From Candidatus Latescibacterota bacterium (GTDB taxonomy: Bacteria; Latescibacterota; UBA2968; UBA8231): DNA of 64,000 bases. The stretch is from NCBI GenBank assembly GCA_965206595.1, contig OZ242214.1:2848001-2912000 (forward strand). The letters are read 5' to 3'. This document shows, one piece after another, positions 42,121-62,700 of this stretch. The stretch's first letter is position 1. Each line of letters opens with the position of its first letter. The position numbers and the translations under genes were made by a program. The notes under the pieces are model-generated. The model was not told the origin of the DNA and did no database searches. It saw only the letters and a list, made by a program, of their open reading frames with translations.

Positions 42121-42210
42121 TCGGAAATATATGTTATATATTCTATTTGATGGAAGTTGTTGTTTATATTTATTTTTATTATAGAATAAATAGGCTATTG
42201 TGTCAAATCA
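42121..42210 (+). promoter_or_regulatory. Very AT-rich promoter region of the cas operon
   Basis: About 80 bp of nearly pure A/T in a GC-rich context; inverted repeats AATATAT-gtt-ATATATT (42126-42142) and TATTCTAT/ATAGAATA (42139-42188). Confidence 0.6.
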
Positions 42211-42249
42211 CCGCTGTGGAAAGGCGCAGCCAACAAACGAGGAGAGACC

Positions 42250-43452
42250 ATGACGATTGATATAAAGATCTTGAAAGAAGCGCTCGGCGGAACAGCTGCA
42301 GCACTTCGGTGTGTGACCGACTATCAGCCGGCAGGAGGCCCCGGAGACAAGGTATTTCCGCCGACTTACGAGGGCGGCAAATATGCCACCGAGGAGCGCG
42401 TCGACCCCGGGACCGGCGAGATACGGCAGTGCGTTCTCCTGGATTCGGTGCAGTCGCAAGCCAACCGCATGGAGCTGGCGCTGCTGGAGGCACACCGCAC
42501 CGGAACGGTACAGCTTCCTCTGCTGGTAACGCGCTTCAATCAAGAGGAACTACTCAAGAAGTTCTCGGTGACCAGCTTGGAGGCACCGCATCGCGTCGCG
42601 GATGCGCTGTTCCGCGACAGTCTGTTGAATGGAATGATTTTCCGTAAGTCAGAGAAAGGTCGAATACTCGACACTGCGGAAGTGCGCAACGCCACCGGCC
42701 TGTTTGGCCTGTGCCCGACCGCACTGGTATTCGGGCTGTGGGACTCGACCGGGCCGCGTGGCGGCTTGGGGTGCAAGTTTCAGCGCGCGGTGGTGTCGGA
42801 AATCGTGGGGTATGACGCCAGGGATGGAAAGAAAACGTCCAGCCGCATTGACCCGGCGGAGATCACGCTCGGCGCGGGTCCGCTGTACGAGCGTAAATCT
42901 GAAAGCGACGATACCTCACACTGGACCTTGGATGAGAGGGACGGCAACAAAAAGCTCAAAAAGACTGGAAGGCCATCGGAAGCGAATCATGGAAACGTCA
43001 CGCCAACCATTGCAGAAGGCGGATTTACGTTTTCGAGTGCCCGACAAACGACAACCTTGTCTCTGGCCGTTCTTCGCCGTCTCCGCTTTCCCCTCAACGG
43101 TGCCGCGGACTCCAACCACGATACCGATCTTGCGGCACGTACGGCGCTGGCCGCACTGGGGCTCGCCGCCGGTACTCTGGCGCGAGTTGATACGGATCTT
43201 CGTTCTCGTTGCCAGCTTTTTGCTGAACAAGAACCTGTGTGGGAACTGCTCGACCGCCCTGGAGAATCTCCGCAGAAATTCAAACTTGGTCCCGAAGATG
43301 CGCTGAATTTGTTGGCAGCGGCGATTACTGAGGCGAAAAACGCGGGGCTACCGTGGGATAACGAAATTGAGCTGACCCCATCGCCCGACCTTATTGAACT
43401 GGTTCGGCGCAGCCAGAAATTGGCCAGCACATCGGGAGAAGGGGGAGACTGA
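42250..43452 (+). CDS. cas7g: Type I-G Cas7 (Csb1/GSU0053 family)
   Basis: QPAGGPGDKVFPPTY, LLDSVQSQANRME, TSLEAPHRVADA, PTALVFGLWDS, PSEANHGNV, DLRSRC. Confidence 0.93.
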   Translation: MTIDIKILKEALGGTAAALRCVTDYQPAGGPGDKVFPPTYEGGKYATEERVDPGTGEIRQCVLLDSVQSQANRMELALLEAHRTGTVQLPLLVTRFNQEELLKKFSVTSLEAPHRVADALFRDSLLNGMIFRKSEKGRILDTAEVRNATGLFGLCPTALVFGLWDSTGPRGGLGCKFQRAVVSEIVGYDARDGKKTSSRIDPAEITLGAGPLYERKSESDDTSHWTLDERDGNKKLKKTGRPSEANHGNVTPTIAEGGFTFSSARQTTTLSLAVLRRLRFPLNGAADSNHDTDLAARTALAALGLAAGTLARVDTDLRSRCQLFAEQEPVWELLDRPGESPQKFKLGPEDALNLLAAAITEAKNAGLPWDNEIELTPSPDLIELVRRSQKLASTSGEGGD

Positions 43453-45812
43453 TGTTCTCTCTTGGCATCCATTACCTGAATGGATGGTCAATGGCAGCAG
43501 CGGATGGAGCGCGAAAGGAGCGGGCTGAATGGCCACCGCATCCCGACCGGGTGTTCATGGCGTTGGCTTCAGCATGGTTCGAGACCGGCGAAGACCCTGC
43601 CGAAGGCGAGGCCCTGCGCTGGCTTGAAGCCTTGCCGCCCCCTGCGATTGCCGCTTCGGATCACGACAGTCGCGGCGCTGTTGTCAGCTATGTGCCAGTC
43701 AACGACTCCACCCTCAGTCGCAAAATTCCCACCGGCGGAGACCTGAACAAACTGAAGGATGCCGGGCTGGCCCAGCTTCCCGAGCATCGGTCGCGCCAGC
43801 CCCGTGGTTTCCCGGTTGCCATTCCCCACGACCCGACCGTGCATCTGATCTGGCCAGGGGTCGAGTTGGGTGCGCATCGCCACGCCTTAGAAAGACTGGC
43901 CCCAAAGGTCACACACGTGGGGCATTCCGCTTCCTTTGTACAAGTGTGGGTGGAAGCTGATCCGCCGGAGCACACGTGGATTCCGGCGAACAGTGTCGGG
44001 CTTCAACGACTGCGCGTAACAAGCCCCGGGCGCTTGAAGGTGTTGGAAACGCGCATGGACCGCGCCGCGTGGATCGCTTACCAAGATCTTCAAGGCGAAA
44101 TCAAGCAAGCCGAGGCGGACCTCAAGGAGATGAAGCAACCGCCAAGGGTGGCTTGGAAGGCATTCCCGGATGTGGTGCTACTGGCCAGTGAATCCGAGGT
44201 CAAGCAGCATCCAGACTATCCTGACGCAAAGGCCGGTGGTGATGCCGAGGCTGCGACAAACCTGGTCAGCAGCCTGGTTGACGAGACGGGAATCGCCACG
44301 GTGCCGGCATTGATCGCCGCGGTCAGCGAGAGCGGTTACCCCGTACTGGTCAGCGCCCATGCCTGGGAACGTCACGGAGTCAATGCCATTCCGATTTCTT
44401 TGGCGGAATTCCTGAGCGAGCGACTCGGAATCCCGTTTGAAGATGCCATCGTGCAGACCAATGTCGTCAACCATACCGGGGCCGACGGCTTTGGCCGACT
44501 CGCTCGGCAAGCCACATTTGAAGGCACGATTGAGAAGGACCGCGAATACCTGATGGTGGACGATTTCGTCGGCCAGGGCGGCACCTTGGCGAATCTGCGC
44601 GGCTGGATAGAAAAACAGGGCGGCCATGTCGTCGGGGCCGTGGCCCTGACCGGCAAACCCTATTCTGCCAAACTGAACCCCTCACAGGAGCAATTGCATG
44701 AACTCCGAGAAAAGCACGGATCAGACTTTGAGAAATGGTGGAAAGCCCGCTTCGGCCACGCCTTCGATTGCCTTACTCAGTCGGAGGCTCGGTACCTCGC
44801 CCGCTCCCCGGATGTTGACACCATCCGAAATCGACTTGTTGCGGCAAAGCAAGAAGGAAATGGCACAGGTTGCGCGCGAAGTCCTCGCGAGCAAAGACAG
44901 TACATCAGGGAGTTGAAAGCGCGTTTGAAGGACGGTTTTCCTAACGGCCAACCCGTGAGCCTGCGCCCGGTGCCGGGACGCTGGCAGGGATACGATAGGC
45001 CCCCGAAAGACAAGGCCCCCGAAGCTTCAGGCCCGGTCTTCGACCCTCAGCTCATTATCCTCGGCATCAAAGGCAATCGCGTGTCTCTATCGGCGACGCT
45101 CAAGCTCACGACGGCCCTGCGCGGCTTATTGATGAAAGAGTGTCCAGAACAACCGCCGCCGGAATGGTTCAGCGGTCATCGCCCGGACGGAACGCCCACT
45201 GCCGACCCCCATCTGGCATTGACTCCTCTCCCTTTCGTCGGCGCGGAACATGCAGACGGCCGCATAATGGGTTTGGCTCTGATCCTGCCGGCGGGCTTGG
45301 ATCAGCAGGAGGCCGGGCATTGCCTCGAACCGTTCTTACGCGATCCAGCTACCGGATTGCCGCGTGAACATCCTTTGTTCGATAGCCAGTGGTTCGAGTG
45401 CGCCATTGAGCTGGAAACCCGCGAACGTCCTCCAAATAACCTCGAGCCGGATACCTGGACACGGAAATCGTGCCGTTGGGCGAGTGCGACCCCGGTGGTC
45501 CTGAACAGACATTTCGATGGCAAGGACAAGTGGGAGCGGGCCGCCGAGAGCGTGAAGGATATGTGCGGACACATCGGTCTGCCGCGTCCCCGCGAAGTTC
45601 TGCTGCACCCGGTTTCTCTAGTTGAGGGCGTGCCTCATGCGAGAGAATATCCGCAATTGACTCGCAAGAACGGTGGTGGCCGACGGAGCCACAACCACGC
45701 GGTGATCATCTTCGACGAGCCGGTGCGCGGGCCTGTGCTTGTTGGAGCTGGTCGTTTCCGTGGTTATGGGTTGTGCCGCCCGATGGATGAGCGAGGTGAG
45801 AACCGTGACTGA
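43452..45812 (+). CDS. csb2: Type I-G Csb2 (Cas5-Cas6 fusion) with an inserted phosphoribosyltransferase domain
   Basis: N-terminal EWPPHPDRVFMAL, YVPVND, HVGHSASFV. C-terminal HLALTPLPFVG..HADGRIMG, WASATPVVL, GPVLVGAGRFRGYGLCRP. Central VDDFVGQGGT. Confidence 0.9.
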   Translation: MFSLGIHYLNGWSMAAADGARKERAEWPPHPDRVFMALASAWFETGEDPAEGEALRWLEALPPPAIAASDHDSRGAVVSYVPVNDSTLSRKIPTGGDLNKLKDAGLAQLPEHRSRQPRGFPVAIPHDPTVHLIWPGVELGAHRHALERLAPKVTHVGHSASFVQVWVEADPPEHTWIPANSVGLQRLRVTSPGRLKVLETRMDRAAWIAYQDLQGEIKQAEADLKEMKQPPRVAWKAFPDVVLLASESEVKQHPDYPDAKAGGDAEAATNLVSSLVDETGIATVPALIAAVSESGYPVLVSAHAWERHGVNAIPISLAEFLSERLGIPFEDAIVQTNVVNHTGADGFGRLARQATFEGTIEKDREYLMVDDFVGQGGTLANLRGWIEKQGGHVVGAVALTGKPYSAKLNPSQEQLHELREKHGSDFEKWWKARFGHAFDCLTQSEARYLARSPDVDTIRNRLVAAKQEGNGTGCARSPREQRQYIRELKARLKDGFPNGQPVSLRPVPGRWQGYDRPPKDKAPEASGPVFDPQLIILGIKGNRVSLSATLKLTTALRGLLMKECPEQPPPEWFSGHRPDGTPTADPHLALTPLPFVGAEHADGRIMGLALILPAGLDQQEAGHCLEPFLRDPATGLPREHPLFDSQWFECAIELETRERPPNNLEPDTWTRKSCRWASATPVVLNRHFDGKDKWERAAESVKDMCGHIGLPRPREVLLHPVSLVEGVPHAREYPQLTRKNGGGRRSHNHAVIIFDEPVRGPVLVGAGRFRGYGLCRPMDERGENRD

Positions 45813-47553
45813 GTTGAACGATGGTCCGGCGCGGAAGCACCTGTTGCTGACGGTGCTTGGGAAGGATCCCAAACCTGCTCAATACACCCTTGAAGATCGG
45901 TGTGTAGAAGCCCGGCTTGCGCCCATCGCCCTGTTCAACCTGCTGCCCGAGGAAAAGCGTCCTGATCGAGTGCTGGCGCTGTGCACGCCGGAGGCGAAGC
46001 AGGATAGCTGGCCACTGCTTGAACAGGAGCTGGACGATCGGTGCCAAGTCGCGGCCGTTGAGGTACCCGCTGGCGACACCCAGGAGGACGTCAATGCTTT
46101 TTTGGCCACAGTTACCGGTGCCATTCCAGAGAAAGCCGAACTTATGGTGGACGTGACGCACGGGTATCGGCACTTCTCGTTTCTCACGTACATCGCAGTG
46201 CTCTATCTGGCCGCGCTGCGCGGAGCCGCGATACGCGGCGCGTACTACGGCATGCTGAATCGGGATGCGCCCAGTCCGTTCCTCGATCTGCGCCCGCTCC
46301 TAGAGCTGCCTCGCTGGGTTTATGCGTTGGAGGTTTTGCGCGACACGGGCAGTGCGCTGCCGATGGCCAGGATACTCGACGATGGTCCGGACAGTCAGCC
46401 AGCACGAGACAATTCCCGCGACTTGACCCACCTCTCGGGAGCATACCTCTCGGGCTTGCCATTGGAGTTGGGGTGGCAGGCGTGGAACGCCCGTGAGCAC
46501 CGGCGCAAGCCGTTCACGAGGTTGCTTCGGGACGGCCTTCATCTGCCGCTCGCCGAGAAGTTGGTCGAGCGGCTCGGGGAGATCCTCAAGCCCTTTGCCC
46601 TCGCCGCACCGGCTTCAGGCGAGGGATGGAAGAAGCGCGTTGGGCTGTCCAGGGATGAGTTGCAGCGCCAAGCTCGAATCATCGACGATCTGCGGCGTGA
46701 GAACCTCGTGACGGCGCTCCGCCTGATGCGCGAATGGCTCGTGTCGTGGGCGATCTACCGGCAAGCGTCCGCAGACGATTGGCTTGACCGCGATGTGCGG
46801 CACAAGGCGGAAGGGCTTCTTCATGCAATCAATGCCATTGGCAGCGACAGCAGACTCCGCGACGTCTTGACCGAAGAACAGCGCGCGCTGGGCGGCTTCT
46901 GGGGTAACCTTGCCGAAGCCCGGAACGCCTATGCGCATCACGGAATGCGTGGGCAGCTGCTCGTTGGAAACAAGCAACTCGATAAAAACCTCGACTGTAT
47001 ACAGAGGTTTTGGAAAGATGACCTTCGTTCGTGTCCGGAGATGTCCCTCTCGCTCGGCGAGTCACCCGGCGGTGCAGTCCTAGTGAGCCCCATCGGACTG
47101 CGCCCCGGCGTGCTGTTCAGTGCCGTACAGGCATGTCGGGCGAACGAGGACAGTCGAGACCCGGCGTTGTGCCTCGTCATCTGTTCACCCGAGACAGAAG
47201 AACTGATCGCCGAGGCGTTGAAACATGCCGAGTTCGGGGGCGAGTTCGTGCCGCTCGTCCTTGAAGACGCCTTCGGCGGTGGCCCGGATGAGATCCTGGA
47301 ATTGGTGAGCACCTCGCGAAGGCGCTTCATCGGCGCCGACGAAGTGCTGGTGAACGTGACCGGCGGCACGACGCTCATGGGGCTTGCCGCCGAAAGTCTG
47401 GCAAGCGAGGCACGCTTGCTTGCCTGTCCATCGGTGCGCCGTTTCGGTTTGATCGACCGGCGGCCTCCAAGCGAACAGGAGGACGACCCTTACCAGGCAG
47501 GCGAGCCGTTCTGGTTCGATGACGGAGAGGAGGACTATGCCAACCGACATTGA
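45805..47553 (+). CDS. csx1: Csx1/TM1812-family CARF-HEPN ribonuclease with an extra C-terminal CARF-like domain
   Basis: DVTHGYRH (46150), YYGML, HEPN RNAYAH (46921); C-terminal VSPIGLRPGVL...VNVTGGTT; GTG start overlapping the csb2 stop. Confidence 0.82.
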   Translation: MTELNDGPARKHLLLTVLGKDPKPAQYTLEDRCVEARLAPIALFNLLPEEKRPDRVLALCTPEAKQDSWPLLEQELDDRCQVAAVEVPAGDTQEDVNAFLATVTGAIPEKAELMVDVTHGYRHFSFLTYIAVLYLAALRGAAIRGAYYGMLNRDAPSPFLDLRPLLELPRWVYALEVLRDTGSALPMARILDDGPDSQPARDNSRDLTHLSGAYLSGLPLELGWQAWNAREHRRKPFTRLLRDGLHLPLAEKLVERLGEILKPFALAAPASGEGWKKRVGLSRDELQRQARIIDDLRRENLVTALRLMREWLVSWAIYRQASADDWLDRDVRHKAEGLLHAINAIGSDSRLRDVLTEEQRALGGFWGNLAEARNAYAHHGMRGQLLVGNKQLDKNLDCIQRFWKDDLRSCPEMSLSLGESPGGAVLVSPIGLRPGVLFSAVQACRANEDSRDPALCLVICSPETEELIAEALKHAEFGGEFVPLVLEDAFGGGPDEILELVSTSRRRFIGADEVLVNVTGGTTLMGLAAESLASEARLLACPSVRRFGLIDRRPPSEQEDDPYQAGEPFWFDDGEEDYANRH

Positions 47554-48748
47554 AGCGACTTACGGGGTGGTCACGCCGCTATTTTGCGCTGGGGCCGATC
47601 CAGAGCACGCCGAGCTTCGCCTGCCCAGCTTCAAGGGTGCACTGCGATTCTGGTGGCGGGCGTTGGCATGGTCGCGCTACGGCCCTGACCTTGAAACCAT
47701 ACGGAAACAAGAGGACGCGCTATTTGGAAGCGCGGATGGTGGCCAGTCCCGTGTGTCAATGCACTTGGCTCTATCTTCGGTTCAATCGATAGTTTGCAAA
47801 GACGAAGTTCTCACCGTTTCCCAAACAGACACGCGTGTCGTTGAGGAAGGAGCTCGCTACCTCGGTTACGGCGTGATGGAGGCATTTGGGAGCCAACGGA
47901 AAAACACGAAAAAAGGACAGCTCACGCGGGCATGTCTTCGCGCACCGTTCGATTTCACCGTTCTAATGCGAGGTCGTGAACTGAACGGGATGGAGTTGAC
48001 GTCACTCAAGGATGCCCTGATCGCACTTGGAACTCTCGGCGGAATGGGTGCGAAGAGCCGCAAGGGTTACGGTTCCCTGGCCATTCGGTCTCTTTGTATA
48101 AACAGAGAGGAGCAGAGGAGTGGGCCGCAATCCATGAGCAAACTGCACGGCGCGATCAAAGCGTTTAGAAGCAACGGCGATACAGGGGCGCTGCCCGAAT
48201 TCACGGCGCTGTCGGCGAAGGCTCGCCACATCCTGCTATCGAGCCACAAGAAGGAGCCCCTGGAGTTGTTGGACCTTATCGGTCGCGAACTCGTCAGGTA
48301 CCGAAGCTGGGGGCACAGAGGAAAGATCTTTGGCGGAGAAGACTCGGAGAAAAATTTTGAAGATGACCGCGATTTGATGAAAAGCAATCGGCCCAATGCA
48401 CATCCCCAGCGCATCGCCTTCGGGCTTCCCCACAACTTCGGGCTTCCCCACAACTATGGTAAGCGACCAAACCAGCAAGTTGGCCCAGGTGACAAGGAAC
48501 TGGACCGACGCTCCAGCCCGTTGTTCATCCATATCCACGAGTGCGGCGATACACCGGTCGCTGTCCTGTCGTTCCTCCCCGCGCGATTTCTGCCAAAAGG
48601 CAAATCGGATATCTCCGTTGGGGGGAGCAAAGTCCCTCAGCGTCCAGAGGACGAATTGTACCGCCCAATTCACGACTTCCTCGATCGCCTACTCGATCCC
48701 AAAAAACGCGAGGAACCGTTTACGATTGCCAAGGAGGTGCGGCCGTGA
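47537..48748 (+). CDS. cmr1: Type III-B RAMP Cmr1
   Basis: VVTPLFCAGA, ELRLPSFKGALRFWWRA, LFGS, GGMGAKSRKGYGS, FGLP, RRSSPLFIHI. Confidence 0.92.
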   Translation: MPTDIEATYGVVTPLFCAGADPEHAELRLPSFKGALRFWWRALAWSRYGPDLETIRKQEDALFGSADGGQSRVSMHLALSSVQSIVCKDEVLTVSQTDTRVVEEGARYLGYGVMEAFGSQRKNTKKGQLTRACLRAPFDFTVLMRGRELNGMELTSLKDALIALGTLGGMGAKSRKGYGSLAIRSLCINREEQRSGPQSMSKLHGAIKAFRSNGDTGALPEFTALSAKARHILLSSHKKEPLELLDLIGRELVRYRSWGHRGKIFGGEDSEKNFEDDRDLMKSNRPNAHPQRIAFGLPHNFGLPHNYGKRPNQQVGPGDKELDRRSSPLFIHIHECGDTPVAVLSFLPARFLPKGKSDISVGGSKVPQRPEDELYRPIHDFLDRLLDPKKREEPFTIAKEVRP

Positions 48749-50682: not shown

Positions 50683-51788
50683 TTGGGGTCCAACTCCTAC
50701 CGGTGGACACCTGGTTCTTCCGCGACGGCACTCCGTTCACGGCAGATAGCGCGCCACAGGATAACGTCGGAAGCCTGTTTCCGCCGCATCCGCCGACTGT
50801 AGCCGGCGCGCTCCGTGGGGCGTTGGCGTTAGGCAGAGGTTGGAACGGCCGTGGATGCTGGCCAGAGGGACTCAACACAGTACTCGGCGATGGACCGGAA
50901 GATTTCGGCGCGCTCTCAATGGAGGGTCCCTTCCTCCTCCGTGAGAACGAACCACTCTTCCCCGCGCCTCGGCACCTTCTCGGCTCGGTCGAAAGAGACC
51001 GGTGGATTCCTCGCGTCCTACTCCGCCCGGGTGCCTGCGTGACATGCGACCTGGGCAATGCCGTACGACTTCCGGAAGCGGGCAGCACCACGGCCAAAAT
51101 CGAGGAATGCAAGACTGGCGATGGCTGGTGGCTCACACTCGCAGGCATAGGGAGAGTGCTGCGCGGCGAGCTCCCGGGCGAGGTGGTATCGAGCCGATGT
51201 CTCTGGAGCGAGGAGCCGCGAGTCGGGCTGAAACGCGACCTGAGTAAACGCGCCGCGGAAGAAGGCATGCTCTACAGCACCCGGCATGTACGTCTTAATC
51301 GCGGTGTCTCGATTGGGCTGCGCCTCGGTGGTGTCCCGCCGGATTGGACGTTGCCGACAGACCAGCTCATGCGGCTGGGTGGCGAGAATCGCCTCGCAGT
51401 CTGTCAGGAATGGAACGCCGAGCCAACCCTCCACATGCCGTTGACAGAAATCGAGGATAGTGGACAGGTCACGGTGATTGCCCTGACCCCACTCGACCTC
51501 GACGAAGCCGTGTATCGCGGCCGGCAGCCCCTCGATGCACCTGGCAACATCCGGGTCGTCTCCGCCTGCCTAACCCGCCCGCAACGGATCGGAGGATGGG
51601 ACTCCCTGACCCGCCGGCCCCTGCCACTTCGGCCCGTGCTGCCGCCCGGCAGCGTGCTCTTCTGTGAAATAGACGATCCGGGCCTCCTAGTCGATACAAT
51701 GCATGTGGGCAACAACAACCAACTACCCCGGCTGGGGGCGCGGCAAGCATGGGGCTTTGGTCGCGTGGCGCTCGGCGTCTGGCCTTAA
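50679..51788 (+). CDS. cmr3: Cmr3 (Cas5-group RAMP)
   Basis: PVDTWFFRDGTPF, FPPHPPTVAGALR, LGGENR, GGWD, PPGSV, GFG. Confidence 0.92.
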   Translation: MIGVQLLPVDTWFFRDGTPFTADSAPQDNVGSLFPPHPPTVAGALRGALALGRGWNGRGCWPEGLNTVLGDGPEDFGALSMEGPFLLRENEPLFPAPRHLLGSVERDRWIPRVLLRPGACVTCDLGNAVRLPEAGSTTAKIEECKTGDGWWLTLAGIGRVLRGELPGEVVSSRCLWSEEPRVGLKRDLSKRAAEEGMLYSTRHVRLNRGVSIGLRLGGVPPDWTLPTDQLMRLGGENRLAVCQEWNAEPTLHMPLTEIEDSGQVTVIALTPLDLDEAVYRGRQPLDAPGNIRVVSACLTRPQRIGGWDSLTRRPLPLRPVLPPGSVLFCEIDDPGLLVDTMHVGNNNQLPRLGARQAWGFGRVALGVWP

Positions 51789-51805
51789 CCGATAGGAGGT
51801 AACGT

Positions 51806-52630
51806 ATGAACGCGGCAATGCTCGGCTTGCTGGCCGAAACCCCGATCCATCCCGGCGCAGGACGCAGCATGGGGGTTGTGGATCTACCGGTTGCCCGCGA
51901 GGCGGCTACGGAATACCCGGTGCTCGTGGGTTCGAGCCTGAAAGGCGCGCTGAGGGACAAGATGGAAACGGCGAAGGGAGAGGACGACACGAAAGTCCGT
52001 TTCGGAAAACCGGATCAAGCGGGCGATCTGCTGGTCTCCGATGGACGACTGCTGTTACTGCCCGTGCGCAGCCTGATGACCTCGTACCGCTGGGTGACCT
52101 GCCCCCACATCATTGAGCGCTATTTCCGTGACCTCGCCCGGGCCGGTCTGACTCAACGGCTGCCGGTTCCCGACGTGGAGAAAGACTCCGTCCTGGCGAC
52201 GGGCAATGGCAATTTGTTCCTCGAGGAGCGACAATTCGCCATCAACGGTACGCCGCAAGAAGAACTGATCAACGCCATCGCTCCACTCCTGTTGCACGAG
52301 CAGACCAGGAAACGCCTGCGCTCTCAGAAAATCGCCGTGCTGTGCGACGATGATTTCTCCTGGTTCGTACGCTATGGCCTCCCGGTCCAGGCACGCAACG
52401 TCTTGGAGGACGGCACGAAGAAGAGCAAAAACTTGTGGTACGAGGAGACGCTGCCACCGGATACAGTCATGTACGCCCTCGTCATGGGACGTAGCGACGA
52501 TGCTCTGAGGGCGCTTAACTCGCTCTTCCCCGACAGCGATCCCTACCTGCAAGCCGGCGGTAACGAGACGGTGGGCCATGGATGGTTCGCCGTCAGGGTA
52601 CCTTCCGAGGACACCGAAGGTGCGACGTGA
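51806..52630 (+). CDS. cmr4: Cmr4 (Cas7-group target RNase)
   Basis: ETPIHPGAG, VVDLPVARE (catalytic Asp present), GSSLKGALR, LWYEETLP, QAGGNETVGHG; AGGAGG RBS. Confidence 0.94.
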   Translation: MNAAMLGLLAETPIHPGAGRSMGVVDLPVAREAATEYPVLVGSSLKGALRDKMETAKGEDDTKVRFGKPDQAGDLLVSDGRLLLLPVRSLMTSYRWVTCPHIIERYFRDLARAGLTQRLPVPDVEKDSVLATGNGNLFLEERQFAINGTPQEELINAIAPLLLHEQTRKRLRSQKIAVLCDDDFSWFVRYGLPVQARNVLEDGTKKSKNLWYEETLPPDTVMYALVMGRSDDALRALNSLFPDSDPYLQAGGNETVGHGWFAVRVPSEDTEGAT

Positions 52631-53034
52631 AGACCATTGAGCAAAGACGTGCGGCAAACGCCCTTTTGCGTGTCACCGAGTTGAGCAACCGCTCGAATGA
52701 TTTCAAGGCACGGTACCGTGCCTACGTGGACCGCCTGGGGCCGGCAATCGTCATGAACGGCCTGGGCCAGGCACTGGCAACGGAACGTGCAGCCTCCGAC
52801 TCGCGCAACAGTGATCGCGAAAAGGCGCATCACGAGCTGTACATCGGCCTGCAACGCTGGCTGTGCCGGAAGGACGAGGGCGTGTATCCTTCAAGTCAAG
52901 ACCTTTTGCAGGCCATCATGGAGCACGACCAATTGCTTTACCTGCACGCCCAGGCAGAAGCGCTCGCATGGCTTGAGTGGCACAAGAAATGTTGCCGGGC
53001 TCAGTTCCCGAAGGACGAGGAGGGTGAGGAATGA
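52627..53034 (+). CDS. cmr5: Cmr5 small subunit (Cas11)
   Basis: KTIEQRRA, IVMNGLGQALA, EALAWLEW; GTGA and ATGA overlaps. Confidence 0.9.
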   Translation: MKTIEQRRAANALLRVTELSNRSNDFKARYRAYVDRLGPAIVMNGLGQALATERAASDSRNSDREKAHHELYIGLQRWLCRKDEGVYPSSQDLLQAIMEHDQLLYLHAQAEALAWLEWHKKCCRAQFPKDEEGEE

Positions 53035-54062
53035 CCCTTCCCCTGTACAAAGCGGCTACCCAACCGAGCCGATCTTCCGGGGATCACGCGGGGTTGTGGT
53101 TCGACAAATTCTGCAATCACTGGCATGTCACCTGCGACTCTTGGACGATGTCGGGCGAGCAGAAGCTCATGTGGATCAAAAGCCTCGCGAATGACAGGGT
53201 CGGCGCCACCGATCAGATCGACGAATTTGCGTCTCGGCTTCGGCGGCTAGTCAAAAGGCGTGATGGTCGGTTCGAAGTTTTTACAACGGAATCCCGCTTC
53301 GTCACCGGGCTTGGCCGTAGTCATCCCGTCGAGAACGGCTTTGCTTGGCATCCGACGCTGGGGACGCCTTTCCTGCCGGGAAGCTCAGTCAAGGGGTTGA
53401 TTCGTTCATGGGCGAAGATGGACGCCGAACCCCATCCAAGTTGCAAAACCTTGGATCGACTGCTTGGGCAGTCTGAGGAAACGGGCGGCGTGTGTTTCCT
53501 CGATGCCGTTCCCGATGCTCCTGTACAACTTGAACCCGATGTCATGACACCGCACTATGCCGGCTGGGACGAGAAGAATCCACCTGGCGATTGGCGCTCC
53601 CCCACACCCATCCCCTTCCTCACCACGGCCGCCGGAACGTCGTTTCTGTTCGGTTTCATCCCCTGCCGCGGCGCCACAAAGAAGGAGGATCTTGATACCA
53701 TAGCGGTCTGGCTGCGTTCCGCTCTCGAGTGGGCGGGCGCCGGGGCCAAGACGGCGGTCGGGTATGGTCGCTTTCGTCCGGGCAAGGTCACCACCACTCC
53801 AAGTCTCCAGCAGGCCCCTCAAAGCCCCCACACAAGAAGGGGCGTCGAACCAAAACCCGGGGACCGCGTCCAAGCCGAACTCCTGGAGGAGAAAACTAGG
53901 AGAGGGGGCTGGAAGGCCAAGCATCCGGAAAGCGGGCTGCAAGGCCCGATACAAGACACCGATAACGTTCCTGCCGACGCCAAGCCGGGGCACCAGGTCG
54001 AACTAACGGTCGCCTACGTAAGGGCGAATGAAATCGCATTCAAATGGGGCACACCGTGTTGA
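53031..54062 (+). CDS. cmr6: Cmr6 with a C-terminal extension
   Basis: RFVTGLG, GTPFLPGSSVKG, FLDA, DVMTPHY, PTPIPFL, GAGAKTAVGYG. Confidence 0.92.
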   Translation: MTLPLYKAATQPSRSSGDHAGLWFDKFCNHWHVTCDSWTMSGEQKLMWIKSLANDRVGATDQIDEFASRLRRLVKRRDGRFEVFTTESRFVTGLGRSHPVENGFAWHPTLGTPFLPGSSVKGLIRSWAKMDAEPHPSCKTLDRLLGQSEETGGVCFLDAVPDAPVQLEPDVMTPHYAGWDEKNPPGDWRSPTPIPFLTTAAGTSFLFGFIPCRGATKKEDLDTIAVWLRSALEWAGAGAKTAVGYGRFRPGKVTTTPSLQQAPQSPHTRRGVEPKPGDRVQAELLEEKTRRGGWKAKHPESGLQGPIQDTDNVPADAKPGHQVELTVAYVRANEIAFKWGTPC

Positions 54063-56992
54063 GCAGTACAGATTTTGCCGAGTTCTTCAACAGCCTGTGG
54101 GGCCATCCGCCCTTCGCTTGGCAGCAGGCTTTGGCGACTAGAGTACTCGAGCGAGCAGAGACTCCCTGGCCCGAGGCCATCGCCTTGCCCACGGCGTCCG
54201 GCAAAACCGCGTGCCTGGATATCGCGGTTTTCGCGTTGGCGGCCCAGGCTTCCCGGCTGGACCGGAGGCAGACCATCACCGCGCCACGCCGCATCTTCTT
54301 CGTGGTGGACCGGCGCGTAATCGTTGATGAGGCGTATGAACGCGCCCGCCGATTGGCGAAGAAACTGGAGAATGCCGAGGAAGGCATTCTGAAGACAGTC
54401 GCGGACAATCTCCGGCAGATTGCAAGCGGTGAGATGACCTGCTCCAATGATGTCCGACCGCTATCCGTTCACGTATTGCGCGGCGGCATGTATCGGTCGG
54501 AGGCTTGGATGAATAGCCCGCTTCAACCCATGGTGGTGGCCTCGACTGTCGATCAAATCGGCTCTCGCCTGTTGTTTCGCGGCTATGGACGTGGTCATAG
54601 CACATGGCCGATAGCTGCGGGATTGGTCGCTAACGACAGCCTGATCCTGCTCGACGAGGCGCATTGTGCCCAGCCGTTCCTGCAAACCCTGCAAGCGGTG
54701 CGGCGCTATCAAAAATGGGGGCATACGCCGCTTGGGCGTCCTTTTTACCCGGTGGTGATGTCGGCCACACCGCCTACCGGGATAGAGGATGTATTCGAGG
54801 ATCGTTCCGGCGAAGGCCGCGATCCTTGCCATCCGCTAGGCCGCCGACAATTGGCGCACAAACCGGCGATCTTGAAGAAAGCGGAAAGGGCCAAGGGGAA
54901 GCAGGCCACTAGCGCGATGGCCAAGGCTTTGGTGGAGGCTGCGTTGGAGCTGGTCAACGACGAGCGCCCCGCTATCGTAGTGTTCGTCAACCGCGTTGCC
55001 ACGGCGCGGGAAGCCCATCGGCTGCTATCCGATAGGGAAGACCTCGACGCAGTTCTACTCACTGGCCGCATGCGTCCGGTTGATAAGGACACAATCGTTC
55101 GGCAACGCTTGAACCTCTTGCGATCCGATCTAGCCAATGAGCGTTCTTTGGCAAAACCGGTGATCGTTGTGGCTACCCAAACTCTGGAAGTTGGGGCGGA
55201 TCTCGACTTTGACGGCTTGGCGACCGAGTGCGCGAGTCTCGACGCCCTGCGACAGCGCTTCGGCCGACTGAATCGCATGGGACGACCGATCGCCGCGGGG
55301 GCAGTTATTCTTGTACGCGGCGACCAATCCGATGCCGGGAAAAAGCACGACGATCCTGTTTACGGAGAGGCCCTGACCGATACCTGGACATGGCTCAACG
55401 GATGCAAGAACGAAAACGGTGAGGTGGATTTCGGTATTGCCCATATCGAGGATCAGCTGCCGAAGGGAGACTCCCTTTCCATGCTGAACGCCCCCTCCGT
55501 CGATGCCCCGGTGATGCTTCCGGCCCATGTCGATTGCTGGGCGCAAACAGCGCCGGAACCACAACCTTCACCCGATGTGTCAGTGTTTCTGCACGGACCT
55601 CGCGAAAACCTGGCGGATATACAGGTCTGCTGGCGTGGCGATCTGGACCTGTCGAACGAAGATGCAGGAAAACAGGCAATTGAGTCATTGTCCTTGTGTC
55701 CGCCGAGCAGCAGCGAAACGCTCCCGGTGCCGATCAGCGTTTTCCGGCGTTGGCTGGCTGGAGAAACCTTTGAAGATGACAGTGGGGACGTGGAGGGCAG
55801 CGGGAGTGATACGGACGAAGAAAGCGCTTCCTATAGAGGTCGCGACGTAATTCGGTGGAGGGGAGCAGGAACAGGACCTGAGGACATTACCTCGGATCCC
55901 ACAAAAATTCGGCCCGGGGATGTTATCGCGATCCCGATCAACCATCCCCTTCCACGTCATCAACTTGGCGACCTGCCGCAGGACGCGGAGTTGGACGTGG
56001 GCGATCGCGCCTATTTGCTTGCCCGGGCCAAGCCCATCCTCCGCATTCACCCGAAGTTGGTGGATGCCTGGCCGGATTCCGTTGATGCCACGGAAAACGC
56101 TCGGAAGTTACTGAACGATTTGGAACGCAAGTACGAGGACGATGAGCTTGACGATGCCTTGGACGATCTGCTGACAGAGCTTTCCAATTCGCCCGAACGG
56201 ACTTGGCTGGCGGAAACCGCAAACGTACTCTGCAAGGACCACACCTATCGCATTGTCGGGGGGAACAGCATCACCCTCGTCGGACACCGCATGATACCGA
56301 AACTTGCTCACGCGGCGGACAGCTTCAGCGACGAGGACGATGCGGCAGCCTCCGGCACATCACACCGCAACGGCCACCCAGTCAAACTTCGGGCCCATCT
56401 CCCCGGAGTCGAAAGGTTTGCCCGTTGCCATGCCTCCGGTTGCGGATTGCCTGTAGACTTGGTCGAGGCCATCGCCAAGGCCGGCTTGCTGCACGACCTG
56501 GGCAAGGCCGATCCTCGATTTCAGTCCTTGTTGCAAGGCGGCGCTCGCTGGTTGGGTGGGGAACTTCTCGCCAAGTCTGCTCGAATGCCGATAAATCGGG
56601 CAGCCTATGAGAAGGCTCGGACCGCTTCGGGCTATCCCAAAGGCGGGCGGCACGAACTGCTTTCAGTGTGCTTGGCAGAAAGCGCGTCGGTGCTTTTGCC
56701 GGAAAGGGACGATCTGCGCGACTTGGTTCTGCATTTGATTGCCAGCCATCACGGCCACTGTCGGCCGTTCGCACCGGTGGTGTTTGACGAGCAGAGCGTG
56801 GATGTAGATTTCGAGTTACGCGGCCAAGGGACGCACTGGTCCGGTCCTACCGGCCTTGAAGGTCTCGATTCCGGGGTCGCGGACCGCTACTGGCGGCTGG
56901 TGCAGCGCTATGGATGGTGGGGCCTGGCTTGGCTGGAAGCCCTATTGCGACTCGCCGATTGGCGGCAGAGCGATCTGGAGGAGACACAATGA
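54044..56992 (+). CDS. cas3: Type I-G Cas3 (SF2 helicase with C-terminal HD nuclease)
   Basis: LPTASGKT, VVDRR, STVDQIGSRLLFRGYG, LLDEAH, MSAT, QRFGRLNR; C-terminal LHDLGKAD and SHHG. The start may be 54056 or 54059. Confidence 0.94.
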   Translation: MGHTVLSSTDFAEFFNSLWGHPPFAWQQALATRVLERAETPWPEAIALPTASGKTACLDIAVFALAAQASRLDRRQTITAPRRIFFVVDRRVIVDEAYERARRLAKKLENAEEGILKTVADNLRQIASGEMTCSNDVRPLSVHVLRGGMYRSEAWMNSPLQPMVVASTVDQIGSRLLFRGYGRGHSTWPIAAGLVANDSLILLDEAHCAQPFLQTLQAVRRYQKWGHTPLGRPFYPVVMSATPPTGIEDVFEDRSGEGRDPCHPLGRRQLAHKPAILKKAERAKGKQATSAMAKALVEAALELVNDERPAIVVFVNRVATAREAHRLLSDREDLDAVLLTGRMRPVDKDTIVRQRLNLLRSDLANERSLAKPVIVVATQTLEVGADLDFDGLATECASLDALRQRFGRLNRMGRPIAAGAVILVRGDQSDAGKKHDDPVYGEALTDTWTWLNGCKNENGEVDFGIAHIEDQLPKGDSLSMLNAPSVDAPVMLPAHVDCWAQTAPEPQPSPDVSVFLHGPRENLADIQVCWRGDLDLSNEDAGKQAIESLSLCPPSSSETLPVPISVFRRWLAGETFEDDSGDVEGSGSDTDEESASYRGRDVIRWRGAGTGPEDITSDPTKIRPGDVIAIPINHPLPRHQLGDLPQDAELDVGDRAYLLARAKPILRIHPKLVDAWPDSVDATENARKLLNDLERKYEDDELDDALDDLLTELSNSPERTWLAETANVLCKDHTYRIVGGNSITLVGHRMIPKLAHAADSFSDEDDAAASGTSHRNGHPVKLRAHLPGVERFARCHASGCGLPVDLVEAIAKAGLLHDLGKADPRFQSLLQGGARWLGGELLAKSARMPINRAAYEKARTASGYPKGGRHELLSVCLAESASVLLPERDDLRDLVLHLIASHHGHCRPFAPVVFDEQSVDVDFELRGQGTHWSGPTGLEGLDSGVADRYWRLVQRYGWWGLAWLEALLRLADWRQSDLEETQ

Positions 56993-57921
56993 CGGAAAAT
57001 GAACCAGCTCCAGGTCTTCTGCTGAACGGGCTCGACGGCAGCAATCCGCTCGGATTTCTCGCGGCCGTTGGCGTGCTGCGTGTTGCTACAAAGGCTGACT
57101 CTTACTCGGACTGGCGTGTACGTTGGGAAATGCGAGGGGGGCACTGGTCCCCTGTATTGCTTGGGGACAAAGTGCTTGCAGCGGATGGTTTGATCGAACT
57201 ACTTGTGCCCGCTCTAACGGAAATGAAGGGCGATCATGCGTTTGGGTTTGCCGATGATCTGACGATCAACTGCGAGGAGTTCCGGCAAGTGGCTCAAGCC
57301 GCCTGCAACGCAGCGGATCTCAAAGATCGGCACTACGCCGATTTCATTGCCGCTTTCGGCTGTGATAGCGTCCCCATCTCCGCCAAGAATTCACGGATCC
57401 AGGACACAGCGCTGCGAACCATGAGCGGAGCAGGCCATCAGCACTTCATCGGCTCCATGCGAGAACTGGTTGAAAAAACCAACCCTGGTCATTTGCGCGC
57501 TTCCCTGTTCGAGCAGTGGCAGTACTCAGATTCCAAACCGAGTCTTCGCTGGGATCCTGTTGACGACCGCAGGTACGCCCTGCGTTGGAAGGAACCTTCG
57601 GGCGATCCCGTGCGCACAATGCGCGGCGCCAATCGTCTCGCGGTTGAAGCACTGCCCCTTTTCCCTACCGCACCTGGGGAAAGGAACCTGCATACGACCG
57701 GCTTTACACAGCGGCGAGGCGAAGGCGTGCTGTTTACATGGCCAATCTGGGAAGTGCCCTTGAACATTGACACCGTGCGTTCGCTGCTCAGCTTGGCCGA
57801 GTTACAAGAGCCTCGACCAGACCGGAAGAGTCTTTTTGCGAAAGGCGTTGTTGAGATTTTCAGGAGCCAGCGAATTACAAGGGACAAGTATCGCAATTTC
57901 ACACCTGCCGTACCTGCATGA
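56989..57921 (+). CDS. cas8g: Type I-G short large-subunit protein (Cas8g2/Csb3-like)
   Basis: GLDGSNPLGFLAAVG, SGAGHQHF, LRWDP.DDRRYAL, GANRLAVEALPLFP, FTWPIW; ATGA overlap with cas3. Confidence 0.75.
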   Translation: MTENEPAPGLLLNGLDGSNPLGFLAAVGVLRVATKADSYSDWRVRWEMRGGHWSPVLLGDKVLAADGLIELLVPALTEMKGDHAFGFADDLTINCEEFRQVAQAACNAADLKDRHYADFIAAFGCDSVPISAKNSRIQDTALRTMSGAGHQHFIGSMRELVEKTNPGHLRASLFEQWQYSDSKPSLRWDPVDDRRYALRWKEPSGDPVRTMRGANRLAVEALPLFPTAPGERNLHTTGFTQRRGEGVLFTWPIWEVPLNIDTVRSLLSLAELQEPRPDRKSLFAKGVVEIFRSQRITRDKYRNFTPAVPA

Positions 57922-57954
57922 CCACGGCGCGTAGATAAACGAAAAGAGCCGGCA

Positions 57955-58263
57955 ATGAGAGAACCCGACTTGCCAAGAGTCAAGGATGTCGTCGAAGAGA
58001 CCTTGAAAGAGCGATGCGGCGACGTGTTTGAACTGATTGCGGTAAGGCCGGACTTCGATGAATACGGTGGCGAGATTCTTGTCATCAAAGCTGTCTTCAA
58101 CCAGGACCGCCTCGGTGTCGGGCGAACCTCCGGCCTGACACGTCACCTGCGTGCCAAACTTGCAGAGGTGGGCACGGAAGCGTTTCCGGTTATCTCCTTT
58201 ATCGCCAGATCCGAACTGCGGGACCGCGACCTTGAAGCCCTCCGGTTGAGCGGGCCAAGCTGA
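57955..58263 (+). CDS. Small hypothetical protein
   Basis: 102-aa ORF co-oriented with the operon; DFDEYGGEILVIKAVF, AFPVISFI. Confidence 0.6.
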   Translation: MREPDLPRVKDVVEETLKERCGDVFELIAVRPDFDEYGGEILVIKAVFNQDRLGVGRTSGLTRHLRAKLAEVGTEAFPVISFIARSELRDRDLEALRLSGPS

Positions 58264-58268
58264 CATCC

Positions 58269-59455: not shown

Positions 59456-59478
59456 AGAGCCAGAACAAGCTGACATCC

Positions 59479-61026: not shown

Positions 61027-61049
61027 GGATCCAGAACAAGGTGATGGCC

Positions 61050-62403: not shown

Positions 62404-62700
<297 letters not shown>

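What the first reader, a model, noticed from the sequence alone, without database searches (positions are those of the whole stretch)
42250..57921. Complete type III-B module nested inside a type I-G operon as one coupled unit
Seen: order cas7g-csb2-[csx1-cmr1-cas10-cmr3-cmr4-cmr5-cmr6]-cas3-cas8g. Every junction overlaps except cmr3/cmr4 (17 bp with AGGAGG), including both I-G/III-B borders. Key motifs are intact: Cas10 GGDD, Cmr4 Asp, Cas3 DEAH and HD, Csx1 RxxxxH. There is no stand-alone cas6 and Cas10 has no HD domain. Established: Csb2 processes crRNA in type I-G, type III systems often borrow a Cas6, and HD-less Cas10 acts through cOA. Inference: an integrated hybrid in which one crRNA pool drives DNA destruction by Cas3 and RNA sensing with cOA-activated RNase. 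Adjacent I/III loci are known; interleaving with Csb2 as the shared maturase is not something I recognise as described.
Basis: partly seen in the sequence, partly recalled or inferred. Interest (0 to 1): 0.85.

Follow-up and report, generated by a model that had tools for sequence, protein, structure and literature searches.

The report
Type III-B cassette inside I-G operon

Summary
On the + strand, 42250-57921 reads cas7g-csb2-csx1-cmr1-cas10-cmr3-cmr4-cmr5-cmr6-cas3g-short cas8g. All junctions overlap or abut except a 17-nt cmr3/cmr4 gap, and the named motifs are intact.

Downstream lie cas2, cas4/cas1 and a 99-repeat array that starts 672 bp past the window. The 7.05 Mb single-contig genome gives no match over cut-off to five Cas6 families. 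It holds no other type III module, and its two other CRISPR loci are type I-C.

In this I-G lineage the default order is cas7g-csb2-cas3g-cas8g, so the III-B set is a true insertion. Of 78 related loci, 3 carry the same insertion. Five more carry a compact III-A-like module or a fragment of one, and one carries csx1 alone. A tree and an AU test point to several origins.

Stand-alone relatives of the Cmr module use the same repeat design, and two (L108, L114) carry a Cas6 homologous to Csb2's C-terminal domain.

Sharing of crRNA is inferred, not shown. A preprint already expressed Csb2 together with a Cmr complex as its pre-crRNA processor. Verdict: new variant of a known kind, moderate interest.

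The parts
42250..43452 (+). cas7g / csb1 (type I-G backbone subunit), 400 aa
   Evidence: PF09617 at 1e-52 and TIGR02570 at 2e-21. ATG with GAGGAGAG upstream.
43452..45812 (+). csb2 (Cas5-Cas6 fusion, the presumed crRNA maturase), 786 aa. It has a 250-aa PRTase-fold insert at aa 226-475 (nt 44127-44876).
   Evidence: TIGR02165 at 2e-85, split over residues 1-288 and the C-terminus. PADLOC Cas56g at 4e-123. Single copy in the genome. Insert. C-terminal His576/587/687/749 and the G-rich loop are conserved.
45805..47553 (+). csx1-type effector (CARF-HEPN-CARF), about 582 aa
   Evidence: PADLOC PDLC01840 at 3.4e-137 over the whole length. TIGR02549 DxTHG at 26.2 bits (cut-off 21). TIGR02221 at 69 bits, under its cut-off of 76.25. 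HEPN motif RNAYAH.
47537..48748 (+). cmr1
   Evidence: TIGR01894 at 5.5e-14, over cut-off. RAMPs PF03787.
48745..50682 (+). cas10 / cmr2, 645 aa, no HD domain, GGDD present
   Evidence: TIGR02577 at 3.5e-42, PF22335 palm2 at 1.3e-29, and PF12469 Cmr2_N at the very N-terminus. GGDD at 403-406.
50679..51788 (+). cmr3
   Evidence: PF09700 at 1.4e-65 over the whole profile. TIGR01888 at 96.2 bits, just under its cut-off of 100.4.
51806..52630 (+). cmr4 (backbone RNase subunit)
   Evidence: TIGR02580 at 7.8e-51. Asp26 in GVVDLPVARE. AGGAGG lies 17 nt after the cmr3 stop.
52627..53034 (+). cmr5 (small subunit)
   Evidence: PF09701 at 2.3e-27 and TIGR01881 at 5.8e-11.
53031..54062 (+). cmr6
   Evidence: TIGR01898 at 2.3e-36.
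54044..56992 (+). cas3g (helicase with C-terminal HD nuclease), 982 aa
   Evidence: TIGR02621 at 1.5e-220. GKT, DEAH at 204, HD at 817.
56989..57921 (+). short cas8g (large-subunit variant; NCBIfam 'Cas3-extension family'), 310 aa
   Evidence: PADLOC PDLC01514 Cas8g at 3.6e-95 and NF049934 at 4.2e-85. It follows cas3g in most related loci.
57955..58263 (+). 102-aa ORF of unknown function
   Evidence: No family hit. Homologue at 77% identity in L009 and at 36-40% in L059.
58269..62219 (+). Three tandem AAA-ATPase-like ORFs (PF09820). The middle one also has PDDEXK_9.
   Evidence: Homologues at 74-77% identity lie upstream of cas7g in several related I-G loci.
62410..62700 (+). cas2
   Evidence: PF09827 at 2.4e-17 and PADLOC Cas2g at 3.6e-27.
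62714..64000 (+). cas4/cas1 fusion. It runs past the window end to about 64468. A leader of about 200 nt and the 99-repeat array (36-nt repeat CTTTCCGCGATCTGTTGATCGCGGCCTCATTGAAGC) follow from window-equivalent 64672.
   Evidence: NF049935 at 4.1e-136. Cas1 match at genome 2911485-2912468. Array.

Best explanation
This is a composite CRISPR-Cas locus. A complete cas6-less, HD-less type III-B effector cassette (cmr1-6) with a Csx1-type CARF-HEPN RNase has been inserted at the csb2|cas3g junction of a horizontally mobile type I-G operon. The whole is arranged as one translationally coupled gene string, with one adaptation module and one array.

Likely mechanism:
1. The array is transcribed from its leader next to cas4/cas1.
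2. The Cas6-like C-terminal domain of Csb2 cuts each repeat 4 nt after the hairpin. This leaves crRNAs with the 8-nt 5' handle AUUGAAGC.
3. One share of these crRNAs assembles with Cas7g, Csb2, short Cas8g and Cas3g. That complex recognises PAM-flanked DNA and degrades it.
4. Another share is bound through the same 8-nt handle by Cmr3/Cas10 and the Cmr4/5/6/1 backbone, and its 3' end is trimmed.
5. That complex senses target transcripts. Cmr4 (Asp26) cuts the RNA, and the Cas10 palm (GGDD) makes cyclic oligoadenylate, most likely cA4.
6. The signal switches on the Csx1 HEPN RNase.

The type III arm would catch invaders that escape the PAM- and seed-dependent type I arm.

Shown here: gene content, order, junctions, motifs, lack of any other Cas6 or type III module, the repeat design, and recurrence in other genomes. 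Inferred: co-transcription, the crRNA hand-over, the signalling molecule and the benefit.
For: Identity, order and motifs.

True insertion: of 78 Csb2-anchored loci, 51 read csb2|cas3g directly and 15 read cas3g-cas8g-cas7g-csb2. Contigs of two other studies join 45793 to 54077 and 45820 to 54096, which is the cassette-free form.

Only one possible maturase of the Cas6 kind:
- TIGR01877, PF01881, PF10040 and PF09618 gave 0 matches. PF08798 gave one 15.5-bit sub-threshold match.
- Csb2 is single copy.
- RAMP matches occur only in this locus.
- The two other arrays sit beside full I-C operons.

Repeat: hairpin, then CCTC, then ATTGAAGC. This fits the published I-G rule that the cut lies 4 nt 3' of the stem and leaves an 8-nt handle (PMC9638904, passages). 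It also fits the 36-bp 'G-type' repeat with a TTGAAGC tail (PMC11237760, passages).

Compatibility:
- Stand-alone relatives of this Cmr module (L097, L101, L108, L114) carry arrays of the same design, ending in ATTGAAAC or GTTGAAGC (L114's extracted consensus stops at ATTGAA).
- L108 and L114 carry a roughly 277-296-aa Cas6 that is homologous to Csb2 residues 515-782. It keeps four conserved His and the G-rich loop.

Precedent: H. ochraceum cmr1-6 + csb2 + a mini-array gave target-RNA-dependent cA3 signalling in E. coli (preprint 10.1101/2023.06.23.546230, passages and section 6).

Recurrence, which argues for selection:
- The same III-B insertion is in L013, L020 and L037, and cmr6 is followed by cas3g in L088 and L116.
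- A different, III-A-like module sits at the same junction in L016 and L018, and after cas8g in L004 and L022.
- The embedded Cmr modules form 3 separate groups in a Cmr4+5+6 tree.
- One clade is rejected by the AU test (lnL difference 137.8, p 3e-37).
- Junctions stay tight in the other composite loci.
Against: - There are no expression data. No RNA holder was listed, and no + strand promoter was found upstream of cas7g by the simple scan.
- Nothing here shows that Csb2 releases crRNA to Cmr. In the studied I-G system Csb2 stays bound to the 3' hairpin (PMC9638904).
- The preprint text I read reports no control without csb2, so necessity is not shown even there.
- The two I-C arrays have repeats ending in ATTGAAAC, so Cmr could in principle also use, or prefer, other crRNAs.
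- In L020 (and G023) the embedded cas10 looks broken: the ORF is only 272 aa from the hit start, with stops inside the match. Embedded modules can therefore decay.
- The embedded layout is a minority: 3 of 78 loci with III-B, and 9 of 78 with any type III gene.
- 15 of the 17 evaluable Cmr4-anchored metagenome loci are not followed by cas3g.
- The AU-tested group was named after the tree had been seen.
Confidence: 0.65

Rival explanations
1. The two systems are nested physically but independent functionally. The Cmr cassette landed in a permissive junction and draws its crRNAs from elsewhere (for example the two I-C arrays, processed by Cas5c or host RNases), or it works without using this array.
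For: Two further arrays exist whose repeats end in ATTGAAAC. No crRNA or expression data are available. Most relatives of the Cmr module are not next to cas3g: 15 of 17 evaluable loci.
Against: - Cas5c leaves an 11-nt handle in studied I-C systems (recalled, not tested here), whereas type III complexes read an 8-nt tag.
- Stand-alone relatives of this Cmr module use I-G-type repeats, and two of them (L108, L114) carry a Csb2-like Cas6.
- Insertion inside I-G operons happened repeatedly, and with two different type III subtypes. That is hard to explain without a functional link.
Confidence: 0.15
2. The crRNA is shared, but Csb2 is not the (only) maturase for the Cmr arm. Cas7g/Csb1 or a host RNase generates the Cmr-bound species.
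For: A preprint reports that Bifidobacterium animalis Csb1 also cleaves pre-crRNA, redundantly with Csb2 (10.1101/2022.08.19.504415, abstract only). In the studied I-G system Csb2 stays on the cleaved hairpin, which would hinder hand-over.
Against: T. sulfidiphilus Cas7 did not cut the repeat in vitro; only Csb2 did (PMC9638904). Stand-alone Cmr relatives carry a Csb2-C-terminal-type Cas6 (L108, L114). Csb2 was the processing gene supplied in the H. ochraceum reconstitution.
Confidence: 0.1
3. The cassette is a recent hitch-hiking insertion with little or no function, on its way to decay.
For: The island has lower GC than its flanks. It is not found in the two same-genus genomes searched. The embedded cas10 of L020/G023 appears disrupted.
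Against: In the window all nine cassette ORFs are intact, with catalytic motifs and tight coupling. Homologues in L013 and L037 are 46-74% identical (54-74% in L013), and 13 of those 14 tblastn matches cover at least 0.97 of the query (both cmr6 less) with open frames of expected length, which implies purifying selection.
Confidence: 0.07

Closest known systems
Haliangium ochraceum type III-B (Cmr1-6) reconstituted with csb2 (Steens et al., preprint 10.1101/2023.06.23.546230; passages and section 6 read)
   Same: A Cmr complex is supplied with crRNA by Csb2 from a G-type array. Signalling is by cyclic oligoadenylate.
   Different: The effectors there are SAVED-CHAT/PCaspase and the signal is cA3. 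The position of csb2 relative to the cmr operon is not given in the text I could read. No interleaving with cas3g is described.
Thioalkalivibrio sulfidiphilus type I-G (Shangguan et al. 2022, PMC9638904; passages read)
   Same: Csb2 (Cas5-Cas6 fusion) cuts a 36-nt repeat 4 nt after the stem and gives an 8-nt handle. The effector is Cas7g, Cas8g and Cas3g. That genome also has a III-B locus.
   Different: The large subunit there is the long Cas8g1/Csx17. Csb2 is described as two domains joined by a linker, with no PRTase insert mentioned. The III-B locus is separate.
Marinomonas mediterranea I-F / III-B crRNA sharing (Silas et al. 2017, PMC5576922; search-listing abstract, and description in PMC7145637)
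   Same: A type III-B system uses crRNAs of a type I system as a second line against escape mutants.
   Different: The loci are separate, the maturase is Cas6f, and the type I subtype is different.
Pyrococcus furiosus Cst-Cmr locus (PMC4666368; search-listing abstract only)
   Same: [quoted passage not shown]
   Different: It is archaeal. The module called 'I-G' in that paper is Cst, not the Csb1/Csb2 system. It has a stand-alone Cas6 (recalled). The modules are adjacent rather than one inside the other's effector operon.
'Hybrid' or complex loci in surveys (Bernheim et al. 2020, PMC7145637; CRISPRCasTyper preprint; Hoikkala et al. 2024, PMC11229360; myxobacterial survey PMC11237760; passages read)
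   Same: One locus holds several effector modules with a single adaptation module and similar repeats. III-B clusters often lack cas6.
   Different: Those surveys single out I-B with III-B and say most other type I subtypes rarely share a locus. The seven myxobacterial 'hybridized systems' are described only in supplements that I could not open.

Membership tests
Type I-G (Csb / former I-U) CRISPR-Cas | Csb2, a Cas5-Cas6 fusion (the signature gene) | tested here: met
   TIGR02165 at 287.8 bits (cut-off 45). PADLOC Cas56g at 4e-123. It carries an extra 250-aa insert.
Type I-G (Csb / former I-U) CRISPR-Cas | Csb1/Cas7g backbone subunit | tested here: met
   PF09617 at 178.9 bits and TIGR02570 at 76.7 bits (cut-off 38).
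Type I-G (Csb / former I-U) CRISPR-Cas | Cas3g with an N-terminal helicase and a C-terminal HD | tested here: met
   TIGR02621 at 735 bits (cut-off 400). DEAH at 204 and HD at 817.
Type I-G (Csb / former I-U) CRISPR-Cas | Large subunit Cas8g | tested here: met
   Short variant only: PADLOC Cas8g at 3.6e-95; NCBIfam names it Cas3-extension family. The order csb1-csb2-cas3-cas8u1 is a published I-G arrangement (PMC11237760). I did not search the genome for Csx17.
Type I-G (Csb / former I-U) CRISPR-Cas | Cas4-Cas1 fusion, Cas2 and a 36-nt hairpin repeat ending in TTGAAGC | tested here: met
   NF049935 at 4.1e-136 (454.6 bits; the ORF is cut by the window end, so it falls under the full-length cut-off of 560). 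Cas2g at 3.6e-27. Repeat.
Type I-G (Csb / former I-U) CRISPR-Cas | PAM-dependent DNA interference | not testable with these tools
   Needs an interference assay.
Type III-B (Cmr) | Cas10/Cmr2 with a cyclase palm | tested here: met
   TIGR02577 at 144.9 bits (cut-off 79.4). PF22335. GGDD at 403-406.
Type III-B (Cmr) | Cmr1, Cmr3, Cmr4, Cmr5 and Cmr6 all present | tested here: met
   All five are matched. Cmr3 is under the NCBIfam cut-off (96.2 against 100.4) but far over the Pfam cut-off (222.6 against 21).
Type III-B (Cmr) | Cas10 HD nuclease domain (common in the family, not defining) | tested here: not met
   The protein starts at Cmr2_N, with no HD match or motif at the N-terminus. HD is present in only 39% of type III loci in a survey (PMC11229360).
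Type III-B (Cmr) | Target-RNA-activated RNA cleavage and cOA synthesis | not testable with these tools
   Needs biochemistry. Asp26 of Cmr4 and GGDD are present. The role of these residues is recalled from the literature.
Csx1 (CARF-HEPN ancillary RNase) | CARF sensor plus a HEPN Rx4-6H nuclease | tested here: met
   PADLOC CARF2 CARF_HEPN_CARF at 3.4e-137 over the whole length. DxTHG domain over cut-off. TIGR02221 under cut-off (69 against 76.25). RNAYAH motif.
Shared-crRNA type I / type III pair | The type III module lacks its own cas6, cas1/2 and array, and lies with a type I system whose repeats give an 8-nt tag | tested here: met
Shared-crRNA type I / type III pair | The same crRNAs are found in both effector complexes | not testable with these tools
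   Needs crRNA sequencing from purified complexes.

The most novel reading that the evidence does not exclude
The effector operon of one horizontally mobile I-G lineage acts as a docking slot for interchangeable cas6-less, HD-less type III modules. The slot is chiefly the csb2|cas3g junction. The modules are either Cmr + Csx1 or a compact Csm-like set + CARF effectors. They have been captured and swapped several times. The result is single-operon, dual DNA/RNA-targeting systems in which a PRTase-bearing Csb2 feeds both complexes. The PRTase insert may add a nucleotide-linked control layer.
Probability: 0.35. Interest if true: 0.65.

Novelty: new variant of a known kind. Interest (0 to 1): 0.45.

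Why it matters
If the two arms share crRNAs, this is a compact natural design: one maturase, one array and one adaptation module drive both Cas3-mediated DNA destruction and cOA-triggered RNase defence, encoded as one gene string.

Type III modules were captured repeatedly and independently inside I-G operons, including two different subtypes at the same junction. This is comparative evidence that type I/type III pairing is selected, not accidental.

It also raises a testable mechanistic question. Csb2 is a fused Cas5-Cas6 that normally stays on its crRNA. How does it hand guides to a second complex?

The locus offers a defined set of genes for reconstitution.

Tried and rejected
- No RNA holder was listed for 45001-55000, so co-transcription could not be examined.
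- Promoter and terminator scan of 41000-60000: counts were at shuffle level. No + strand promoter was found upstream of cas7g, and no terminator stood out at the borders. Uninformative.
- A separate cas6: five Cas6 family models over the whole genome gave nothing over cut-off. Rejected.
- A second type III module or a second csb2 in the genome: not found.
- That the two other arrays belong to the Cmr module: they sit beside complete I-C operons. Cross-use is not excluded.
- Mapping the published catalytic His503 of T. sulfidiphilus Csb2 onto this protein: no Csb2 chain is in the PDB sequence set. I could only note conserved His residues.
- Layout of the H. ochraceum locus: not stated in the preprint text.
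- The 'seven hybridized systems' of the myxobacterial survey are in supplements, which were closed.
- No complex prediction was run: the claim is about a shared RNA, not a protein-protein contact.
- A careful (bootstrap) tree was not run. One search is a quick IQ-TREE and a FastTree.
Full report
OBSERVATION

The + strand of 42250-57921 carries eleven genes. Four profile libraries identify them:
- cas7g/csb1
- csb2
- a CARF-HEPN-CARF csx1
- cmr1, cas10/cmr2, cmr3, cmr4, cmr5, cmr6
- cas3g
- a 310-aa protein that PADLOC calls Cas8g and NCBIfam calls a 'type I-G Cas3-extension family' protein

I chose the start codons that fit the profile matches and have purine-rich stretches upstream. With those starts, every junction overlaps by 1-19 nt or abuts. 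The exception is cmr3/cmr4, which has a 17-nt gap with AGGAGG.

- Cas10: GGDD at 403-406
- Cmr4: Asp26
- Csx1: RNAYAH
- Cas3g: GKT, DEAH and a C-terminal HD

Cas10 is 645 aa and begins at the Cmr2_N/palm region, so it has no HD domain.

Contigs built from public short reads bridge both I-G/III-B borders:
- Two contigs of run X1 (0 differences) cover 45512-50793 and 50765-54500.
- A contig from another study (X6) bridges csb2/csx1.
- A roughly 90% identical contig (X4) bridges cmr6/cas3g.

X1 may be the sample the genome was assembled from, so only X4 and X6 are independent.

SURROUNDINGS

Downstream lie a 102-aa ORF, three AAA-ATPase-like ORFs (one with a PDDEXK_9 nuclease domain), cas2 and a cas4/cas1 fusion. 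A leader of about 200 nt follows. Then comes an array of 99 copies of a 36-nt repeat, starting 672 bp beyond the window.

Upstream of 41.3 kb are ordinary housekeeping genes. GC is 58-63% over the cas genes against 68-71% just upstream.

The genome is one contig of 7.05 Mb. It contains:
- three Cas1 genes and three arrays
- two complete type I-C operons beside the other two arrays
- RAMP matches only in this locus
- a single csb2
- no match over cut-off to five Cas6 families

That test is not met.

WHAT THE LAYOUT MEANS

A search with Csb2 found 78 loci in named species genomes from many phyla. I mapped the window's proteins onto them with tblastn and classified them:
- 51 read csb2 directly followed by cas3g-cas8g.
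- 15 read cas3g-cas8g-cas7g-csb2.
- 3 are cut off after csb2.
- 2 are unclear.
- 3 (L013, L020, L037) carry csx1-cmr1-6 between csb2 and cas3g, exactly as here.
- 1 (L041) has csx1 alone after csb2.

The csb1-csb2-cas3-cas8u1 order is a published I-G arrangement (PMC11237760). So the cassette is an insertion at one junction of a normal operon.

Contigs from two other studies join 45793 to 54077 and 45820 to 54096, with 30-38 other letters between. That is the cassette-free form.

A second, unrelated type III module also turns up. It consists of an HD-less Cas10 of about 500 aa, Csm2, Csm3 and Csm4, plus a CARF-HEPN or CARF-RelE/DUF2103 protein. Its positions:
- the same csb2|cas3g junction in L016 and L018
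- after cas8g in L004 and L022
- as a fragment after csb2 in L024

In all, 9 of 78 loci carry type III genes inside the I-G operon.

HOW OFTEN IT AROSE

A search with Cmr4 in metagenome contigs gave 45 loci. Their classification:
- In 2 (L088, L116) cas3g follows cmr6.
- 15 have at least 2 kb after cmr6 without cas3g.
- 28 are too short to tell.

I built a quick IQ-TREE of Cmr4+Cmr5+Cmr6 with 23 rows. One duplicate contig and the rows with poor coverage were left out. The six embedded modules fall in three groups separated by well-supported branches. Holding them as one clade against the ten stand-alone rows costs 137.8 log-likelihood units, with AU p 3e-37. The group was defined by gene context, but it was tested after the tree had been seen.

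I also built a FastTree of Cas7g+Csb2 with 71 rows. Eight loci were dropped by my coverage filter, L004 among them. Results:
- The seven rows with a type III module lie in one 18-row group together with eleven rows without one.
- Within a four-row Binatia group, III-B and III-A-like carriers alternate.
- L041 and L024, which hold only a csx1 or a cas10 fragment, lie elsewhere.

Together these point to repeated capture or exchange of type III modules, not one inherited oddity. Junctions in the other composite loci are also tight.

The two same-genus genomes searched lack this Csb2 and this Cas10. The I-G tree does not follow host phyla. Both observations fit horizontal transfer. The host is probably a member of Latescibacterota. 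This is inferred only from a same-family genome (G023) that mirrors L020, and it is not otherwise tested.

IS THE crRNA SHARED?

This is not shown here. The indirect case is as follows.

(a) The repeat is a hairpin (CCGCGATC/GATCGCGG), then CCTC, then ATTGAAGC. In T. sulfidiphilus, Csb2 cuts 4 nt after the stem and leaves an 8-nt handle (PMC9638904). An 8-nt tag is what type III complexes bind (established knowledge, recalled).

(b) Stand-alone relatives of this Cmr module carry arrays of the same design, ending in ATTGAAAC or GTTGAAGC (L097, L101, L108, L114). L108 and L114 encode a free-standing Cas6 next to the module. It aligns with Csb2 residues 515-782 at 33-37% identity. It keeps four conserved histidines and the C-terminal glycine-rich loop. 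This Cmr lineage is therefore used to Csb2-type processing.

(c) A preprint expressed H. ochraceum cmr1-6 with csb2 and a mini-array in E. coli and saw target-RNA-dependent signalling. The text I read has no control without csb2.

Against sharing:
- Studied Csb2 stays bound to the cleaved hairpin.
- Another preprint reports that Csb1 also cuts pre-crRNA (abstract).
- The I-C arrays offer other crRNAs.
- In L020/G023 the embedded cas10 looks broken.

COMPARISON WITH WHAT IS KNOWN

Already in print:
- type III systems that borrow crRNAs from a type I neighbour
- loci with several effector modules and one adaptation module
- III-B clusters without cas6

These appear in the listing abstracts of PMC5576922 and PMC4666368 and in passages of PMC7145637, PMC11229360, PMC11237760 and the CRISPRCasTyper preprint.

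One survey states that most type I subtypes other than I-B, and less so I-A, rarely share a locus with another system.

I found no description of a type III cassette inside the I-G effector operon in searches for:
- Csb2 + type I-G + type III
- Csb2 + Cmr
- I-G + III-B + hybrid + CRISPR
- Haliangium ochraceum + type III-B + Cas6
- type I-U + type III-B + 'same locus'

Subscription journals and supplements were not searchable. The myxobacterial 'hybridized systems' (Data Set S2, Fig. S4) could include such loci.

I therefore rate it a new variant of a known kind.

SIDE FINDING

Csb2 here is 786 aa because a 250-aa domain (aa 226-475) is inserted between its Cas5-like and Cas6-like parts. Short-form Csb2 of 524-565 aa in other loci lacks it.

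Evidence that the insert is a type I phosphoribosyltransferase fold:
- Its PRPP-loop motif (VDDF.GQGGT) is invariant in 32 sequences.
- PDB sequence search hits adenine PRTases at that loop, E 0.016.
- The AlphaFold model has pLDDT of about 84-94 over most of the insert. The whole protein has mean pLDDT 70.8 and pTM 0.41.
- The best Foldseek PDB hits are all PRTases or PRTase-fold proteins: OPRT, ComF, APRT, XPRT, PurR and ShosT, with E from 6e-5 to 2e-3.
- A language-model search gave PRTase clusters at 0.89, which is a lead only.

The long form is common. The best 120 of 1333 database hits are 677-814 aa and 67-95% identical. Most loci that have it lack type III genes, so the insert belongs to the I-G lineage and not to the hybrid.

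I found no paper linking Csb2 or type I-G with a PRTase domain. Its role is unknown.

VERDICT

The functional reading is plausible and backed by comparative evidence, but it is untested. The concept is not new. The architecture and its recurrence are modestly new.

Noticed in passing
window 44127-44876 (Csb2 aa 226-475): Csb2 of this I-G lineage carries a 250-aa inserted domain with a type I phosphoribosyltransferase fold and an invariant PRPP-loop motif. Short-form Csb2 proteins lack it. I found no paper linking Csb2 or type I-G with a PRTase domain.
   Followed up: yes
L016:12322-17313, L018, L004:16420-21112, L022:17323-22027: A compact III-A-like module sits inside related I-G operons. It has an HD-less Cas10 of about 500 aa, Csm2, Csm3 and Csm4, plus a CARF-HEPN or CARF-RelE/DUF2103 effector. 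No csm5 or cas6 was detected. It lies either at the same csb2|cas3g junction or after cas8g.
   Followed up: partly
L108:4971-5804 and L114 (minus strand, about 259-1092): Free-standing Cas6-like ORFs lie next to stand-alone Cmr modules. They are homologous to the C-terminal domain of Csb2 (33-37% identity) and share four histidines and the G-rich loop.
   Followed up: partly
window 58269-62219: Three tandem AAA-ATPase-like (PF09820) ORFs, the middle one with PDDEXK_9, lie between cas8g and cas2. Homologues at 74-77% identity lie upstream of cas7g in several related I-G loci (L004, L006, L011, L012, L013, L018, L019, L022). Summed contig depth at 57951-58500 is 2000-4300 in the four runs, which points to a large multi-copy family.
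   Followed up: partly
window-equivalent 64672-65260 (L003:2673-3260): The first eight or so array units next to the leader have unusually short or odd spacers (about 20-42 nt, against the usual 35-39) and two broken repeats. A lone repeat lies 389 nt beyond the array's end.
   Followed up: no
window 42178-42206, minus strand: A perfect sigma-70 consensus (TTGACA, 17 nt, TATAAT) lies just upstream of cas7g and points away from the operon. No + strand promoter was found by the same scan.
   Followed up: no
L020:15099-16663 and G023:C4:25592-27038: In one related composite locus the embedded cas10 appears disrupted: there are stops inside the match and only a 272-aa open frame from the hit start. 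This could be decay or assembly error.
   Followed up: no
window 25685-28268: Three tandem-repeat arrays with periods of 123-126 bp (2.4-2.9 copies each) lie in a lower-GC stretch. They look like protein-coding repeats and were not examined.
   Followed up: no
genome 2114574-2115665 and 6771779-6775893 (outside the window): Two further CRISPR arrays, each beside a complete type I-C operon. One of the Cas3c proteins has an N-terminal extension of about 390 aa: it is 1132 aa and the profile match starts at residue 390.
   Followed up: partly
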